A stretch of 64,000 nt of DNA from Octopus vulgaris. Its lineage: Eukaryota. A model generated the notes under the pieces. It was not told where the DNA came from. It did no database searches and worked only from the letters and a program-made list of their open reading frames with translations. The stretch lies in assembly GCA_951406725.2 (NCBI GenBank), contig OX597820.1, positions 122,326,001 to 122,390,000 on the forward strand. Direction: 5' to 3'. Of this stretch, positions 8,087 to 60,621 are shown in pieces. The translations under genes were made by a program, and so were the position numbers. The first letter of the stretch is position 1, and the number at the start of each line of letters is the position of its first letter.

Positions 8087-8230
8087 TATACTTTATTTAA
8101 CAAAACCTGTTACTCTGAGTTTCCCGTTCCCGTTCGTCGGACAGTTTTTCAAAAACTGTCCGACGAACGGGAACGTGAAACTCAGAGTAACAGGTTTTGT
8201 TGAATTTTCTGCTGCTTTAAATAAAGTATA
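8087..8230. mobile_element. Fold-back element with hammerhead-like motif (Penelope-like terminal remnant)
   Basis: Arms 8099-8149 and 8151-8201 are reverse complements with 1 mismatch. The + arm reads CTGT-CCGACGA-ACG-GGAA-CGT-GAAA-CTC-A-GAG-TA-ACAG, followed by AATAAA at 8220. Confidence 0.6.
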
Positions 8231-11452: not shown

Positions 11453-11667
11453 ACACACTTACACGTTCCCCCAGTTTGCTGCCACAGCGACAACGGTGAC
11501 AACATACCCTCCACCACCTCAGGACTATACAGTATGTTATTCCAAATTTAGCAACGCCAGCCATCGGGTTAAGAAACAGTTAAAGCAACGCTGCAGTTGG
11601 AAGTGTATGGCCTTGCTCCTGCTTATCATCTCGGTCGCTTTACTTGCCTGTGTAGCCTATTTTGCAG
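11453..11667 (+). CDS. Ten-m: Teneurin exon: Pro-rich end of intracellular domain plus transmembrane helix
   Basis: ttgttgcag|A ... GCAG|gtatgt. Encodes HTYTFPQFAATATTVTTYPPPPQDYTVCYSKFSNASHRVKKQLKQRCSWKCMALLLLIISVALLACVAYFA. CSWKC followed by a hydrophobic helix ending in AYF is the teneurin juxtamembrane/TM signature. Phase 2 to 1. Confidence 0.95.
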
Positions 11668-11834
11668 GTATGTATTCAAATTTAATATTATTCAACTTTT
11701 TCTTTTTTCCATTTTGAATGTTTTTACTGTCAATACTTCATTTAAGGAATTTTCACTCATCTAAAATCCACTCATTATATGCACTTAAACATCATCACAG
11801 CAAACTAACAAAACGCTTATTAATCTTACAATGT

Positions 11835-31396: not shown

Positions 31397-32270
31397 TGCT
31401 TCTTTCAGTTTCCATCTACCAAGTCCTCTCGCAAGGCTTTACTTGGTCTGAGGCTATTTTTCTTTTACTTGTTTCAGTCATTTGACTGTGGCTATGCTGG
31501 AGCACTGCCTTTAGTCGAGCAAATTGACCCCAGGACTTATTCTATTGGTCTCTTTTGCCGAACCGCTAAGTTATGGGGACATAAACACACCAGCATCAGT
31601 TGTCAAGCGATGTTGGGGGGGACAAACACAGACACACAAACATACACACACACATACATATATATATATATAATTTATGTGAAATAGAAAGATGAATAAT
31701 CTTGTTGCAGATTAATCAAAAGTTTAACCGATACCTTGGTAGCAAAAATCACAGCAGAAGACAGCACGGTTGGAGGTACAACCATATGGTGTTGCAACCG
31801 TGCGTTGGTGCGGATAATTGAATTTTAATATTATTAGTGAATTGAAGAAATGGAGTTGAACGAAGATTGAACAGAAATCGTTTTATTTCATTCTACACGT
31901 GTTTCGAAATATACACGTGTAGAATGAAATAAAACGATTTCTGTTCAATCTTTGTTCAACTCCATTTCTTCAATTCACTAATAATATATATATATATATA
32001 TATATACGACGGGCTTCTTTCAGTTTCTATCTGCCAAATCCACTCACAAGGCTTTGGTCGGCCCGAGGCTATAGTAGAAGACACTTGCCCAAGATGCCAC
32101 GCAGTGGGACTGAACCCCGAACCATGTGGTTGGTAAGCAAGCTACTTACCACACAGCCACTCCTGCACTATAGTGAAAAACGCTTACCAAAGATGCCACA
32201 CAGTGGGACTGAACCTGGAACCATGTGGTTTTGAAAGCAAGCTTCTTACCACACAGCCATACTTGTGCCT
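31098..32270 (-). mobile_element. Nested SINE A cluster: outer copy 31098-31455 + 32168-32270, inner copy 31460-31670 + 32005-32167
   Basis: Two 3' halves and two 5' halves in nested order. The fold-back element lies in the inner copy's (TA)n. Confidence 0.75.
31685..31987 (-). mobile_element. Penelope-like terminal remnant ending in a fold-back with ~75-bp arms
   Basis: Arms 31828-31902 and 31913-31987. Minus strand has GAAAC-ACGT-GTA followed by AATAAA. 31690-31780 is similar in reverse to 19330-19415. Confidence 0.55.
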
Positions 32271-34186: not shown

Positions 34187-34600
34187 TGTGAAGTATATTT
34201 GCCATCTAAATATGGCTAACCACTAAGGGTGGATGTTACTGTAGCTTGTAGCCCCAGGAGAACATCTTCTCCAGCTGGCTATCGACAAACTTTCTGTGCC
34301 CTATCGGTATTTGCAAAGGAAGTGATACACACGGACTGCAGTTTCTGGGTATTGACCCGTCATCAGCACACCATTGAAAACCGGTGATTGTCGTGCACTG
34401 ATGACGGGTTAGTACCCAGAAACTGCAGTCCGTGCGTATCACTTAGGTTGATGAAGAAAGGATGACCTTCCTTTGCAAATACCGATAGGGCACAGAAAGT
34501 GTGTCAATGGGCAGCTGGAGAAGATGTTCTCCTGGGCTACAAGCTACAGTAATATCCACCTTCAGTGGTTAGCCATATTTAGATGCAAATATACTTTACA
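34187..34600. repeat. ~415-bp imperfect inverted repeat with CTGATGA...GAAAC-TGCA-GTC motif in both arms
   Basis: Left arm 34187-34366 pairs with right arm 34398-34600, which carries a ~23-nt insertion near 34445-34466. Hammerhead-like core at 34398-34430 (+), mirrored on the minus strand. Confidence 0.85.
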
Positions 34601-38130: not shown

Positions 38131-39067
38131 CACACATATATACACATTTGTGTATCTGTCTACCTATCTATACATACATACGTATGTATACATATATATT
38201 CATATAGACATACAAGCATGCACACAGACATGCACAATCCTTTATATATATATATGCAAGCGTAGAGGCAGATGAACATAGCCACTTGCACACACATACA
38301 CATTAAATTTGCTATTTTATTTGTTTATAAAATCTTGTGGTTGCTTAATTAGATATTACTGTTTTATTTCTTTTAAAATTTAATTATGAAACTTATTTTT
38401 TTTTCTTTTATTTGTTTATTTATTGATATATTTAGTTTTAATATTGTAATATTTTATTATAGAAATGGATACTAACACAATTACAGAATGCATTGTTGAT
38501 TTAATTATAGAATACAATAATTTAATCAGAAAACACAAAGATAGATTAATTGTAGAATCTTGCTGGAGAACAATGGCAACAGTAACAAATACGATAACAA
38601 CAACAACAACAATAGCATTAATAATAAATACCTAACATAGCATCAAATCAAATAAAATTCAGGAACTGCAATCTATTGTTTGTGAAAACTGGTGCTGTTC
38701 CTAGATTCTGTATGCAGACGTCAACACACACACACACACACACATACCTGTGTCTGTTCTTTCACAAACACTACATGCAAATAGCACGCACATATGCATG
38801 CATATGCGCATACACATACATACACATACATGCACACACACACACTCTCATGCCACACACACACATGCACACTTGGAAATCACAGCTTCTAGGTAAATGT
38901 TATTTATACTCTTGAACCTTTCTCCGCAAATAACATTTAGATTGATTTCAAGCTACAGTTACATAACACTGCCTGCAATATCTTTGGCATAATTTATGTG
39001 AAATCAACAGGATCAATTTTGTTATCATCATCATCATCATCATTATTATTATTATTTTGTTAATTCT

Positions 39068-39276
39068 AGAAACACACAAAAGCCGTTCGATTCACTTCAA
39101 CATTTAAGTTTAATTTGTCAAAATATTTTCTTCGCTTTAAGACCGCGACCTGTTCACTGACAAAAATCCAGCATGGTTTTTTGTCAGTGAACAGGTCGAG
39201 GTCTTAAAGCGGTGAAAATATTTTGACAAATTAAACTTAAATGTTGAAGTGAATCGAACGGCTTTTGTGTGTTTCT
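39068..39276. repeat. Near-perfect inverted repeat with ~99-bp arms
   Basis: 39068-39166 is the reverse complement of 39178-39276 with about 3-4 mismatches and a ~11-nt loop. Confidence 0.9.
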
Positions 39277-40886
39277 TAAATGGCTTACAAACACCTTCCA
39301 CACTGCAATTGTTTTCGTTTCAGCACACGATCTCAGATCAAATCACTTGCTATGCATGTACATCTCCGTAATTTGTTAATTCTTCCAGACAAGAAATAAA
39401 TTCTTAAAGAAAAAATAGAAATAAAAAAAAAGAAACCAACTGTAGCTAAGCTGTACCCATTAAAAAATAAATTGCTTTGCTATTTATAGTCAAATTTCGG
39501 GAGAAATAAATGTGATGTTGTGACTTTATGTATTTTCCAAAAGTGCATTGGAGGTATAAAAAAAAAATGAACTCTGTTTCAACCGAAAGTTGAAACAGCA
39601 TCACAGTCTCAACTGGTTAGGAGGAGTCTAGCGCCTTCACTATGGCAGTTGTCAGGTCTGTTTATAAATAGCAGCAATCATAAAATCCAATAATGTCCTA
39701 AACACAGAAGCGTTATTGACTGACAGTAGTGTTACATTGTAGACATTTGTTGTTTGACAACAAACCTTCCACCATTGTTTCCTTGCCTTTTGCTTGTGGT
39801 AGAAGGAAAAGGGCAAGGGTGGGGAAATGTCTAGCTCTGGACATCCAAATGTAGTTTTAGACGAGATTTATAAAGTCAGTGATAGTGAGATATTCTCACT
39901 GCTAATTACTTTTGAGAGGAAATTTATAAACAACAGATATACTTGTGTGAATGTGAATTGGCAGGCACCAAAACCAAGAACTAGAATATTTCTGGGAATG
40001 TCATCTGTAACAGGAAAATTTAAATGGGCCATTTCTTCTTTGGACCTTAAATATGTGGCCATTACTGGCTACACATTAAACAGTATCAGTTTAAAAAAAG
40101 GCATTGGACAATTTCTCAGAGTCCCTTCTACCTAAAGAACATGCAAAAGGCAGGGTAACTTGATATATTAATCCCCCAAAATTATTTACACAATTGAAAT
40201 TGTACCCTTAATGATTAGAAAAGCCATTAGCCTAATGAAAACTCAACAGCAAGAAAGAGAATTTTCAACTTTCGATTGATAAAAAAATCTCCCTCTAGGG
40301 AGATGGGCAGATATGGAAAGAGAGGGTGAGGGAGAGAAAATCTCATGTTTTTAGTAGTTATGGTAGCAATGTTAGACATGTTTTAGGTTAAGCTTTAATT
40401 TTATCACACACTATTAATGTTGCACAGTCTGTAGTAGACCCCAGAATAACTTAAAAAGATAATATAATATTGGTAAGGAAATAAATGGCAGTTATTAATC
40501 TCCTTTAACTGGAATGACTCTACCATTCAGCTATAAACATGAGGTGTTATACCAGCCGAAAAAATCCTTCTCCACCTTTTCCTTATTATTGTTATTATTG
40601 AAATAAGGGAGCCAGTAAAGTTCCCGGCCAAGCCAGGGTCAACTAATTGGATCCCACAAGGGTTAATAAAAGATTTACCAGTTGTGCTTCAGGCATGTAA
40701 GAAATTATTGTTATAGAAATTTATTTGTTGTGTAATCTTTGTTGATGTGTCTCTTGTGTTTGGTTTGGTAACAGCAATGAATGATGATAAATAGAATATT
40801 AATGTTGACACACAAAATTATTATTTTGTTTTCTTTGACCATCAAATGAAATTTCAATTGTCTCTCATCTTGTCATTGTTTTTTAG

Positions 40887-44009: not shown

Positions 44010-44568
44010 TTCAAATCAAAATAGATGAACATCAATGGAATTTGTATCTTTGTGGTACCAGTGCTGGTGGCACGTGGCACACAAGAAAACCATCCGAACG
44101 TGGCCGTAGCCAGTACCGCATCGACTGGCCTCCGTGCTGTGGGCACGTAACAAACACCATCCGATCGTGGCCGTTCGCCAGCCTTGTCTGGCACCTGTGT
44201 CGGTGGCACATAAAAAGCACCATCCGATCGTGGCCGTTCGCCAGCCTCGTCTGGCACCTGTGTCGGTGGCACATAAAAAACACCATCCGAGCGTGGCCGT
44301 TCGCCAGCCTTGTCTGGCACCTGTGTCGGTGGCACATAAAAACACCATCCGAGCGTGGCCGTTCGCCAGCCTTGTCTGGCACCTGTGTCGGTGGCACATA
44401 AAATCACCCACTACACTCACGGAGTGGTTGGCGTTAGGAAGGGCATCCAGCCATAGAAACACTGCCAGATCTGACTGGCCTGGTGCAGCCTTCGGGCTCC
44501 CCAGACCCCACTTGAACCGTCCAACCCATGCTAGCATGGAAAGCGGACGTTAAATGATGATGATGATG
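44010..44568 (+). mobile_element. Retroposon family D with internal 62-63-bp tandem array
   Basis: Units start at 44155, 44218, 44281 and 44343. 3' end GCGGACGTTAAATGATGATGATG. Confidence 0.85.
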
Positions 44569-48334: not shown

Positions 48335-48689
48335 TACTCTCTTTACTCTTTTATTTATCGACCCCGGGACTTATTCTTTGTAAGCTCAGTACTTATTCTT
48401 TCGGTCTCTTTTGCCGAACCGCTAAGTGACGGAGACGTAAACACACCAGCAATGTCAAGCAATGCTAGGGGGACAAACACAGACACACAAACATATACAC
48501 ACACACTTATATATATATACATATATATGACAGGCTTCTTTCAGTTTCCGTCTACAAAATCCACTCACAAGTCATTGGTCGGCCTGGGGCTATAGCAGAA
48601 GACACTTGCCCAAGGTGCCACACAGTGGGACTGAACCCGGAACCATGTGGTTGGTTAGCAAGCTACTTACCACACAGCCACTCCTGCGC
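48335..48689 (-). mobile_element. SINE family A
   Basis: Reverse-oriented copy ending ccacacagccactcctgcgc. Confidence 0.85.
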
Positions 48690-49208: not shown

Positions 49209-49604
49209 GAGTGGCTGTGTGGTAAGTAGTTTGCTTACGAACCACATGGTTCCGGGTTCAGTCCCACTGCGTGGCACCTTGGGTAAGTGTCTTCTACTAT
49301 AGCCTCGGGCCGACCTAAAGCCTTGTGAGTGGATTTAGTAGACGGAAACTGAAAGAAGCCTGTCGTATATATGTGTATATATATATATATGTATGTGCGT
49401 GTCTGTGTTTGTCCCCCCCAACATCGCTTGACAACCGATGCTGGTGTGTTTACGTCCCTGTAACTTAGCGGTTCAGAAAAAAGAGACCAATAAAATAAGT
49501 ACTAGGCTTACAAAGAATAAGTCCTGGGGTCGATTTGATCGAATAAAGGCGGTGCTCCAGCATGGCTGCAGTCACATGACTGAAACAAGTAAAAGCGTAA
49601 AAGA

Positions 49605-58226: not shown

Positions 58227-58256
<30 letters not shown>

Positions 58257-58261
<5 letters not shown>

Positions 58262-58430
58262 GTAAAATAATATGAATGTGACAATTATTCGGCAGCCAAG
58301 ATAAAACTCTGAGTTTTGGATGCCGAGGTGGATAACCGAAGAGATGGTGTTGAGGATTTCCACCTCGGCATCTGAAACTCAGAGTTTTATCTTGGCTACC
58401 GAATAATTGTCACATATTATTTTACAGATA
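58257..58430. mobile_element. Fold-back element with hammerhead-like motif, adjacent to (TA)n
   Basis: Arms 58257-58332 and 58359-58430. The + strand reads GATAA-CCGAAGA-GATG...CATC-t-GAAA-CTC-A-GAG-TT-TTATC (58331-58391). Confidence 0.6.
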
Positions 58431-58880
58431 AATTTACTCTATTTACATAATGTTGAGGTCTCTTACTTTCTTTTGTTATCTTACCATTTTTGCCAATATA
58501 TATATACACACACACACATATATATATATATATATGTTCCTCTAGCATTCACTAACTTACCTCATCTGGCCTTAATGGCCCTCCATGTTTGTTTACGTTT
58601 GGTTTGTTGTATGTCTCCACTGTGCTGTTTTTGTTACCAACTTCAACCCTCCGCAAATCCCAAATTTTATTTTGGTTCGTGGGAGCAACTGTTTTAACGA
58701 AGCCTCATGTTGTCGTTAGTTGCTCGAAATGTGGAGTAGATGAACAGCTGACAACTGATGAAGGGACATTCTTTATGGTTACTTGTCTTGATTTCCATTT
58801 GTTTCTTTCATTGTTCGGATACAAAAGTTTGCTTTTGTATTTCATGTTGTTTACGTTTTGTGACATCCTGTACCCATATA

Positions 58881-58921
<41 letters not shown>

Positions 58922-59736
58922 ACCGACCAGTCCATCAGATGTAGTTACACATCACTGGTCACAATGCGTTCGCATTCTTTTAGCCTTTGAATGACGCCAC
59001 CCCACTAGCTAAGCGAGCAGGCCAATATAATATATATATTTTATATTATTTTATATATATATGTGATTGTGTGTGTATGTGTGTATATCAATCTATCTAG
59101 CTGTCTATCTATCTATATATATGTATGTAGCAAAACAGTTTGATTCAAATTCCTTGGTACTCAGAGTTTCAAGTGTGTTGCTAGTCTTCAGCCATTACAG
59201 TCTGAATGAGAGTTTAATTGAAGGGAGTCAATGTTTACTACTGGACCTTAGCCTGTGATTGGTCAAGAAAGGTTATGCGGTGTCACAGTTTGATGTTGGT
59301 ATTTCAACTACAATTACTTGGAAATATATGATGATGATGAGGATGATGATGGCCAGTTGAGTGAGTTCATTGATTTCTTGCTGAACCCAACTGCACAAAG
59401 GATTTGTGTATAGTGATCAAAATGTCTGTGCTGTACGATAGCTCTCTCTCTCTTTCCATCAAATTGGTGTCACCTGAACGGATGCCCGATGTGTGCCACA
59501 GGTGTTGAAATGATCACAGAACAAAGTGAGGTGAAGTGTTTTACTCAAGAACACAATGCAATGCATTGCTTGGTCCCGGAACTGAACCCACAATCTTACA
59601 GTCATGAGTGCAACACCCTACCCACTTGGCCATGAGAGTTCACATACACATTTATACATACATGGATCCAACCCATATAAGCATGGAATATGGATGTTAA
59701 ATGATGACGATGATAATGGTGATACATGCCTAATTT

Positions 59737-59791
<55 letters not shown>

Positions 59792-59876
59792 ACACACACA
59801 CACACACGCGCGCGCGCACACACACGTATATTCTTGGAGTAATATTTACTTTTGTTTCTTTTGTTTTCAATTACAG

Positions 59877-60071
59877 ATACATGTCCTGTATTGTGCAATG
59901 GTAACGGTTATTATAATGAAGGTTTATGCCAGTGCCATCCAGGCTGGAAGGGACAAGAATGTGAGATTCCAGCCAATGCCTGCGAGGTGCCTGACTGTAA
60001 TGGAAATGGAGAATGTGTTCATGGTCAATGCATCTGCAATAATGGTTACAAAGGTCCAGACTGCAGTGTTC
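59877..60071 (+). CDS. Ten-m: Teneurin EGF repeats 2-3 exon (TCPVLCNGNGYYNEGLCQCHPGWKGQECEIPANACEVPDCNGNGECVHGQCICNNGYKGPDCSV)
   Basis: caattacag|AT ... GTTC|gtaagt. CPVLC.GNG.Y..G.C.C..GWKG.EC is the diagnostic 5-Cys teneurin EGF2. Phase 1-1. Confidence 0.97.
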
Positions 60072-60621
60072 GTAAGTATCCATTTGTCAATATTTCTAAT
60101 CAAAAGGACTGAAATATCTTGAGAATTTGTTTATTGTATGTATTTGCCATTTTTTTATGATTAAATGTCCCAAGATAAATTTCAACAGTGTGGCTGAAAT
60201 AACTAGTTTGAAAATATACATTTGAGAATTACTGAAATATTGAATGCATATTTATTAAAGAGAAAAGAAACTTTTCCATATTTCAAAGTGTATATAATCG
60301 TTTAAATTGCTATATACAGACTGATTTCAAAAGTCTCATTAACATTAATATAAACCAGTTAACAACAAAGGTCAGTTGTAGTCAGTTGAGCATTTTAATT
60401 TAGGGGATTTTATTTTTTTTAACCTCTCCTTATCTCATACCCACACATTCTCTCCATTCATAATAGCTTTCAGCTTTCTCCCCATAGCATTTTTTAATTC
60501 CAATCAACACATCAGGCCTCCATTCGTTTTCAAAATTTAGGAATTCTTGCTTAACTGGTCTATTTACCCTACTCTTGTTCCTGATAGTCATTCAGACCTG
60601 TCCCTGGACATTTATCTAGAT

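What the first reader, a model, noticed from the sequence alone, without database searches (positions are those of the whole stretch)
58257..58430. Second, dissimilar fold-back with the same CCGANGA core and GAAACTCAGAGT stem III
Seen: GATAA(58331-35), CCGAAGA(58336-42), GATG...CATC-t, GAAA(58374-77), CTC-A-GAG-T-T|TTATC(58387-91). Stem I (GAUAA/UUAUC) and stem II differ completely in sequence from the 8.1-kb element but still pair, while the core and stem III are shared. This looks like structural covariation and suggests U4C is a family trait rather than decay. One extra base precedes GAAA in this copy. The element abuts a (TA)n tract.
Basis: partly seen in the sequence, partly recalled or inferred. 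Interest (0 to 1): 0.75.

Follow-up and report, generated by a model that had tools for sequence, protein, structure and literature searches.

The report
C4-core hammerhead of active Penelope retroelement
This hairpin is the broken-off end of a jumping gene and carries a predicted self-cutting RNA with one normally fixed core letter changed; intact and likely still active copies share that change, so the family would allow a natural test of whether such elements need to cut their own RNA.

Summary
Window 58260-58496 is a 5'-truncated, inverted end (pseudo-LTR) of a Hydra-clade Penelope-like retrotransposon, inserted in (TA)n. It carries a minimal type I hammerhead with core CCGANGA (U4C) and palindromic stem III.

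C4 is a family trait. It is in 92 of the first 100 of 4,241 family hits and in all 60 complete motifs beside 30 full-length ORFs. Genome-wide the stem-III descriptor gives 9,352 C4, 6,437 U4 and 334 purine-4 hits, against 0-10 in reversed controls. C4 occurs in three Hydra lineages about 40% identical in protein. It is derived in this lineage, and the youngest subfamily of the 8.1-kb lineage has U4 again. The other core bases stay fixed, so weak dimeric cleavage is likely; cleavage was not shown.

One new lead: U4 lets CUGA mispair with UCAG in stem III and C4 removes this predicted trap, but one young subfamily contradicts the idea.

U4C is known from a viroid; I found no report of it fixed in a retroelement (the key 2017 paper was unavailable). 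The scan noted similar Penelope fold-backs before, none with C4. This copy is probably inert.

The parts
58227..58259 (.). (TA)n target, left flank
   Evidence: all 30 family loci end in TA repeats
58260..58332 (-). inverted, 5'-truncated second copy of the pLTR (left arm); holds only the 3' half of the hammerhead, with G12 changed; joins the sense copy at a 2-base GA microhomology
58331..58335 (+). stem I, 5' strand (GAUAA); the distal part of stem I seen in longer copies was lost by truncation
58336..58342 (+). hammerhead core C3-A9 with C at position 4 (CCGAAGA)
58343..58373 (+). stem II (GAUG/CAUC base, imperfect upper part) with one extra pyrimidine before G12; can be read as a G10.1-U11.1 pair plus one bulged C
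58374..58376 (+). core G12-A13-A14
58377..58385 (+). palindromic stem III ACUC-A-GAGU with a 1-nt loop; predicted to pair only between two copies
   Evidence: architecture as in PMC4209133
58386..58386 (+). H17; predicted cleavage 3' of this base
   Evidence: inferred from hammerhead numbering; not tested
58387..58391 (+). stem I, 3' strand (UUAUC)
58392..58496 (+). rest of the pLTR; the left arm corresponds to the end at ~58428, and 58431-58496 is the optional tail (12 of 30 loci end at the first site, 18 at the second; two of the 30 are one locus)
58497..58535 (.). TA/CA microsatellite, right flank
8093..8205 (.). fold-back stub of a second Hydra lineage (B), with two C4 motifs: core at 8160 (+) and 8140 (-)
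59158..59191 (-). hammerhead of a third Hydra lineage (C); this copy has U4 and loop U
59876..60085 (+). context: teneurin EGF exon; the insertion likely lies in an intron of this gene, in sense orientation

Best explanation
The stretch is a truncated, inverted end of a Hydra-clade Penelope-like retrotransposon, and its C4-core hammerhead is inherited from a likely still active parent in which it probably works as a weak ribozyme that would cut only as a dimer. Shown: the parent is a 2,580-base tandem unit with a 717-codon RT + GIY-YIG frame and the C4 motif 191 bases after the stop; copies sit in (TA)n, have two 3' ends, and often carry an inverted 5' arm. Inferred: read-through RNA of a tandem array brings two motifs together, their palindromic stems III pair, and slow, perhaps protein-assisted cleavage releases unit-length RNA; C4 is the one tolerated core change besides N7, so master elements drift between U4 and C4. 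The RT starts internally downstream of the motif, so copies contain the uncleaved motif. This window copy has no ORF and is predicted to be locked in its own hairpin, hence probably inert.
For: About 90% identity to the pLTR of the intact element and 94-98% to the other full-length dispersed matches. 49 of 62 scored ORF matches are full length without a stop, and the top 10 are identical in score at 100% identity on 8 contigs. 60 of 62 stem-III anchors in 30 such loci carry CCGAAGA; the other 2 are cut by inversions; some loci overlap. Hydra hallmarks are in P0001. With the core left free, the first 100 of 4,427 hits show recurring change only at positions 4 (8 rows) and 7 (4 rows); G5, G8 and A9 differ once each and G12 twice. 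A 77-row series up to 40% divergent keeps C3, G8, A13, A14 and A15.1 in 77 of 77 rows while stems change. Purines at 4 are 334 of 16,123 hits. PMC3088659 states that U4C lowers activity in vitro yet permits viroid infectivity. Dimer-dependent, low activity of PLE hammerheads: PMC4209133. Protein-assisted cleavage: PMC11167929.
Against: No cleavage was observed. TA-joined 5' ends show no peak at the predicted cut: about 2 of ~30 family loci among the first 100 of 616 rows start exactly there, and the rest spread from -17 to +10 (counted by eye). In a deep mutagenesis of a type III hammerhead, all single mutants in the CUGA region had low activity (PMC9901934). Hammerhead mutants did not impair insertion of an anole PLE in vitro. 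Core invariance is partly circular, because 20 of the loci were picked from searches, most of which required the core. Activity of the family is inferred from identical intact copies only.
Confidence: 0.6

Rival explanations
1. C4 is a compensatory change. With loop A, stem III contains UCAG, the perfect complement of core CUGA, so a U4 motif misfolds; C4 breaks this trap and improves folding at some cost in chemistry. This is compatible with the best explanation but adds positive selection.
For: With loop A, C4 lowers the predicted cost of freeing the core in 9 of 9 backgrounds, by 0.7-3.2 kcal/mol. Trap probability falls from 0.56-1.00 to 0.10 or less in 8 of 9; the ninth has no trap. In lineage A, U4/loop U is followed by U4/loop G, then C4/loop A, the last changes on one branch with 99/93 support. 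The reciprocal trap C4/loop G is rare: 5 of the first 100 of 2,386 loop-G hits, and 0 of 22 C4 against 8 of 33 U4 copies in lineage C.
Against: The youngest, very abundant lineage-B subfamily has U4 with loop A (trap probability 0.98) and ORF-bearing copies. In B, C4 is already present with loop U or C, where there is no trap. Penelope-3_HM also has U4 with loop A. Counted by eye as subfamily or family states, 3 of 4 C4 against 2 of 9 U4 have loop A, p=0.12. Copies are not independent, and U4/loop G is itself predicted to be partly trapped (0.29-0.92 in 8 of 9 backgrounds).
Confidence: 0.2
2. C4 abolishes useful cleavage. The fold is kept for another role, such as binding the element's protein or positioning reverse transcription, or cleavage is simply dispensable.
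For: Insertion in vitro did not need hammerhead activity, and no RNA ends were seen at the cut site, in an anole PLE. No junction peak here. U4 belongs to the uridine turn, where mutants have low activity. Naiads proliferate without canonical hammerheads according to PMC8557442.
Against: The remaining core bases did not change at subfamily level in C4 lineages whose stems, N7 and loops did change. The only tolerated change is the one known to stay viable in a viroid.
Confidence: 0.18
3. The motif is chance, or C4 is post-insertion decay of a canonical core, in a MITE-like fold-back.
For: The element is a near-perfect hairpin and Rfam finds no hammerhead.
Against: 0 hits in 60 shuffles; reversed genome controls 0-10 against thousands; C4 in intact tandem arrays. 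Decay runs the other way, CpG to TpG or CpA, as in the CTGA and CCAA copies inside the C4 clade.
Confidence: 0.01

Closest known systems
Hydra-clade Penelope-like elements and their hammerheads (Craig et al. 2021, PMC8557442; seen: abstract, section 11, passages, supplement part 2 of 59 and search hits)
   Same: C-terminal GIY-YIG without CCHH; RWK, DKT, CxCX5C, CxxC and CxH motifs; unit under 3 kb; (TA)n targets; tail; inverted 5' copy. Type I motif with palindromic stem III: 5 of 25 listed families have ACTC-N-GAGT, and 19 of 25 list an extra pyrimidine before GAA.
   Different: All 25 Hydra families in File S2 have CTGA, including Hydra-1_oBim, which has another stem III. Here three lineages have C4 subfamilies, one of them likely active.
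Minimal dimeric type I hammerheads of metazoan PLEs (Cervera and de la Pena 2014, PMC4209133; seen: main text parts 1-2 of 4)
   Same: pLTR location, short stem I, long stem II, palindromic stem III needing a dimer, opposite-strand pairs of truncated motifs.
   Different: The core variant reported in the text read is U3-A8, not C4, and the unpaired base is on the 5' side of stem II.
U4C hammerhead variant of a viroid (Ambros and Flores 1998; not seen, known only through PMC3088659: section 8, passages, reference list)
   Same: Same core change; said to be weaker in vitro but sufficient in vivo.
   Different: A single viroid variant there. Here it is the majority state of thousands of genomic copies and of intact master elements.
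PAc Poseidon element of the anole (Frangieh et al. 2024, PMC11167929; passages)
   Same: Internal RT start at two sites giving a tail, AT-rich targets, hammerhead upstream of the start sites.
   Different: Different PLE clade; its hammerhead overlaps the ORF start, whereas here the predicted cut is 211 bases before the first ATG.

Membership tests
Penelope-like elements (EN+) | single ORF with RT and C-terminal GIY-YIG, linked to the repeat | tested here: met
   In the parent, not in this copy: 717-codon frame, RT motifs at 259, 323 and 355, IY..YVG at 586-607. Pfam GIY-YIG only E=0.014, below its cut-off.
Penelope-like elements (EN+) | tandem units forming pLTRs, inverted 5'-truncated copies, optional tail | tested here: met
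   2,580-base tandem array; inverted arms in about 23 of 30 loci by eye, and two 3' ends
Hydra clade | RWK, DKT, CxCX5C linker, no CCHH or CX2-5CxxC, CxxC and CxH near the end, unit under 3 kb, (TA)n target | tested here: met
   RWK 46, DKT 123, CSCRNKELC 566, CGLC 669, CPH 700, no CX2-5CxxC; criteria
Hydra clade | RT phylogeny with reference Hydra sequences | not tested
   Reference proteins were not available as stored sequences; 840 unnamed relatives at E<=1e-30, the listed ones 41-52% identical
Hydra clade | canonical hammerhead core (CUGANGA) | tested here: not met
   C4 in the active subfamily; met in older subfamilies of the same lineage. Treated as a derived variant; the paper presents this as a shared trait, not as the clade's definition.
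Type I minimal hammerhead ribozyme | three-way order stem I - CNGANGA - stem II - GAA - stem III - UH - stem I | tested here: met
Type I minimal hammerhead ribozyme | conserved core incl. C3-G8, G5, A6, A9, G12-A14, A15.1-U16.1 | tested here: met
Type I minimal hammerhead ribozyme | U at position 4 | tested here: not met
   C4; a known natural deviation, and at least one published descriptor allows CYGANGA (PMC13481778)
Type I minimal hammerhead ribozyme | stem covariation | tested here: met
   18 lineage-A rows: 84% of cells paired, 19 cells with double change against 7.8 in shuffles (0 of 500), slid controls 34-50%; rows are related
Type I minimal hammerhead ribozyme | self-cleavage 3' of H17 | not testable with these tools
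   Only contigs were served, which show no ends; junction test without a peak
Naiad clade | N-terminal endonuclease | tested here: not met
   Endonuclease is C-terminal
Non-LTR retrozymes | short non-coding tandem units | tested here: not met
   The tandem unit is 2.58 kb and coding

The most novel reading that the evidence does not exclude
In these Penelope hammerheads core position 4 and the central base of the palindromic stem III co-evolve: the core can pair with its own dimerisation palindrome, and U4C is a repeatedly selected escape that tunes how often the retroelement RNA is cut. A normally damaging core change would then be the fitter allele in an active animal retrotransposon.
Probability: 0.2. 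Interest if true: 0.7.

Novelty: new variant of a known kind. Interest (0 to 1): 0.45.

Why it matters
Whether Penelope-like elements need their hammerhead to cleave is open (PMC8557442, PMC11167929). This genome holds natural sister subfamilies that differ at core position 4, all of which amplified, one with dozens of near-identical intact copies. They give a ready panel for testing cleavage against retrotransposition. Searches that require CUGANGA would miss over half of these motifs here (9,352 of 15,789 with loop A or U). The window copy itself probably has no function.

Tried and rejected
1. Rfam: no hammerhead model matched at E<=1.
2. DNA search with the 8.1-kb motif returned nothing, not even itself; patterns were used instead.
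3. First guess of a Naiad element: rejected, the endonuclease is C-terminal.
4. 5'-junction pile-up at the predicted cut: none.
5. RNA evidence: no RNA holder on record was listed. Contigs of four runs guessed to be RNA cover the unit, but show no ends or strand.
6. Contigs of four runs under other organism labels list no change at position 4. What these samples are is unknown, so this is not used as evidence of host range.
7. Metagenome scan: 4 loci; the two with a clear pLTR motif have U4.
8. Pairing of the C4 core with CUUCGG in stem II, and a 4: 11.1 covariation in lineage B: not supported by the folds or the subfamily series.
9. A constrained dimer-energy calculation crashed. Only monomer constraints and an unconstrained cofold are reported.
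10. ADAR editing as the source of C4 was considered and dropped, since it would need the antisense strand as template; not tested.
11. Literature searches: hammerhead+U4C gave 1 paper; CCGANGA none relevant; octopus+hammerhead ribozyme, variant-core strings and Penelope/Hydra/cephalopod gave none describing a C4 PLE family in the listings. Lunse et al. 2017 and Ambros and Flores 1998 were not held. The supplements of PMC4209133 were not opened. Either could already mention C4 motifs.
12. PMC5785220 was opened by a mistaken id and is irrelevant. PMC3907566, PMC6155905 and PMC3376415 (passages) added nothing on C4. PMC13282606 (passages) lists recently active Penelope-like families in an octopus, with no ribozyme mention.

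Full report
Observation. The region folds as one long hairpin of -115.8 kcal/mol, with arms 58260-58332 and 58359-58428. The sense copy continues to about 58496 and both ends abut TA repeats. A structural type I descriptor with position 4 free finds 4 motifs in the window and none in 60 dinucleotide shuffles. Rfam has no hammerhead hit. The host genome has 2.8 Gb in 227 contigs; that it is a cephalopod is my inference, shared by earlier scan notes, and was not tested. A teneurin EGF exon lies 1.4 kb downstream on the same strand, so the insertion is likely intronic.

What it is. The 98-base query gave 53 matches from 40 scored candidates, the full-length ones 94-100% identical. All 30 loci fetched end in TA repeats, at one of two sites about 65 bases apart, and about 23 carry an inverted copy of the same end upstream (by eye). 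A 20-base pattern with positions 4-5 free has 4,241 hits and 0 in the reversed control. The first 100 are 92 CCGA, 6 CTGA, 1 CTAA and 1 CCAA. Some hits recur every 2.58 kb. [quoted passage not shown] The protein has the Hydra-clade marks listed by Craig et al.: RWK, DKT, CxCX5C, CxxC, CxH and no CCHH. 49 of 62 scored genomic matches are full length without a stop, the top ten at 100% identity on eight contigs, which suggests recent activity. In 30 of these loci, 60 of 62 stem-III anchors carry CCGAAGA and two are cut by inversions (some loci overlap). The window copy is about 90% identical to this pLTR and belongs to a slightly older C4 subfamily.

How general C4 is. With stem III GAAACTCWGAGT, the genome has 9,352 CCGANGA, 6,437 CTGANGA and 334 CRGANGA hits; the reversed controls give 0, 2 and 10. 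The listed hits fall mostly into three lineages. A is this element (4,427 hits with the core free). B is the 8.1-kb type (8,869 hits), with an ORF about 40% identical to A. C is old (57 hits) and lies beside ORF remnants 29-58% identical to A or B. All 25 Hydra families in the published table have U4, as do two metagenome relatives, so U4 is ancestral by inference. In A, 77 rows form a ladder: U4/loop U, then U4/loop G, then a 99/93-supported clade of 51 rows with loop A in 50, of which 44 have C4 and 7 have U4. The tree has only 97 columns and includes position 4, and the old rows were picked from U4 and family searches. However, no old-type row appears among the first 100 C4 hits, and 95 of the first 100 loop-G hits have U4. 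In B, ordering by distance puts C4/loop U or C furthest, C4/loop A next and U4/loop A youngest, which implies a return to U4. C has both states (22 C4, 33 U4, 2 G4), blurred by CpG decay. Position 4 has therefore switched repeatedly, while other core positions show only scattered single changes. Lineage-A stems covary: 19 cells with double change against 7.8 in shuffles, with related rows. The extra pyrimidine before GAAA is family-wide and common in the clade (19 of 25).

How it likely works. By established PLE biology (PMC4209133; PMC6765202 passages), tandem transcripts let two motifs pair through the palindromic stem III and cleave slowly. An unconstrained cofold of two C4 motifs does pair the palindromes between molecules, whereas the U4 version does not. 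Work on an anole PLE shows protein-assisted cleavage, internal RT start at two sites, and insertion without cleavage in vitro. The two 3' ends and inverted arms here fit that start mechanism. U4C is reported to weaken a viroid hammerhead yet allow infection, and one published search descriptor allows CYGANGA. A mutagenesis study found low activity for mutants of the CUGA turn. I give 0.6 to weak but selected cleavage by the C4 form. I found no direct sign of cleavage: TA-joined 5' ends do not peak at the cut, and only contigs were available. In the window copy the left arm is predicted to bury the core (13.8 kcal/mol), the distal stem I is lost and there is no ORF.

A lead. ACUC-A-GAGU contains UCAG, the complement of CUGA. 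With loop A, U4 motifs are predicted to fold the core onto stem III, and C4 removes this in 8 of 9 backgrounds and lowers the opening cost in 9 of 9; with loop G, C4 is trapped in 8 of 9. Lineages A and C match this: U4 goes with loop U or G and C4 with loop A. The youngest B subfamily and Penelope-3_HM carry the trapped pair, and old B has C4 where no trap exists. At subfamily level the association is not significant (p=0.12; states assigned by eye). I give it 0.2.

Verdict. A known kind of element and ribozyme with a core variant known from a viroid. What I did not find in print (Lunse 2017 unseen; bioRxiv 10.64898/2026.07.22.740005 read only part 1 of 5) is its fixation in an apparently active retrotransposon and its repeated switching in three lineages. 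New variant of a known kind; interest 0.45.

Noticed in passing
window 34320-34450: Fold-back with two canonical CTGATGA hammerheads on opposite strands and stem III GAAA-CTGCAG-TC, with an extra A before GAAA; likely another PLE family.
   Followed up: no
window 31854-31963: Fold-back holding only the 3' half of a minimal hammerhead (GAAAC-ACGT-GTA); likely a further PLE stub.
   Followed up: no
window 39063-39281: Hairpin with 108-base arms, 94% complementary, 3-base spacer; no hammerhead core seen.
   Followed up: no
window 48577-48683 and 49209-49315: Two inverted copies of a SINE-like repeat 525 bases apart.
   Followed up: no
window 59876-60085 and about 11511-11714: Teneurin EGF exon (Pfam 3e-21). 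The upstream piece resembles a teneurin transmembrane exon by recall only, with no Pfam support; if so, most of the window is teneurin introns.
   Followed up: partly
G000:C1:57.208-57.222 Mb (L031, L032): Array of four units on one strand and two on the other, diverging head to head; two units have intact 717-codon frames.
   Followed up: partly
L078 (G000:C1:13.83 Mb): Young lineage-A variant with N7 changed to U (CCGATGA) beside a 98% identical ORF; 4 of the first 100 hits.
   Followed up: partly
runs X17 and X18: Single low-depth contigs under other organism labels match 501 bases of the active element with one substitution and a short gap; contamination, diet or transfer cannot be told apart.
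   Followed up: no
L093 (metagenome contig): Complete Hydra-type element with two pLTR hammerheads (U4, stem III ACAC-U-GUGU, A before GAAA), ending in (TA)n.
   Followed up: partly
window 44142-44403: 63-base tandem repeat, 4.2 copies, inside a common dispersed repeat.
   Followed up: no
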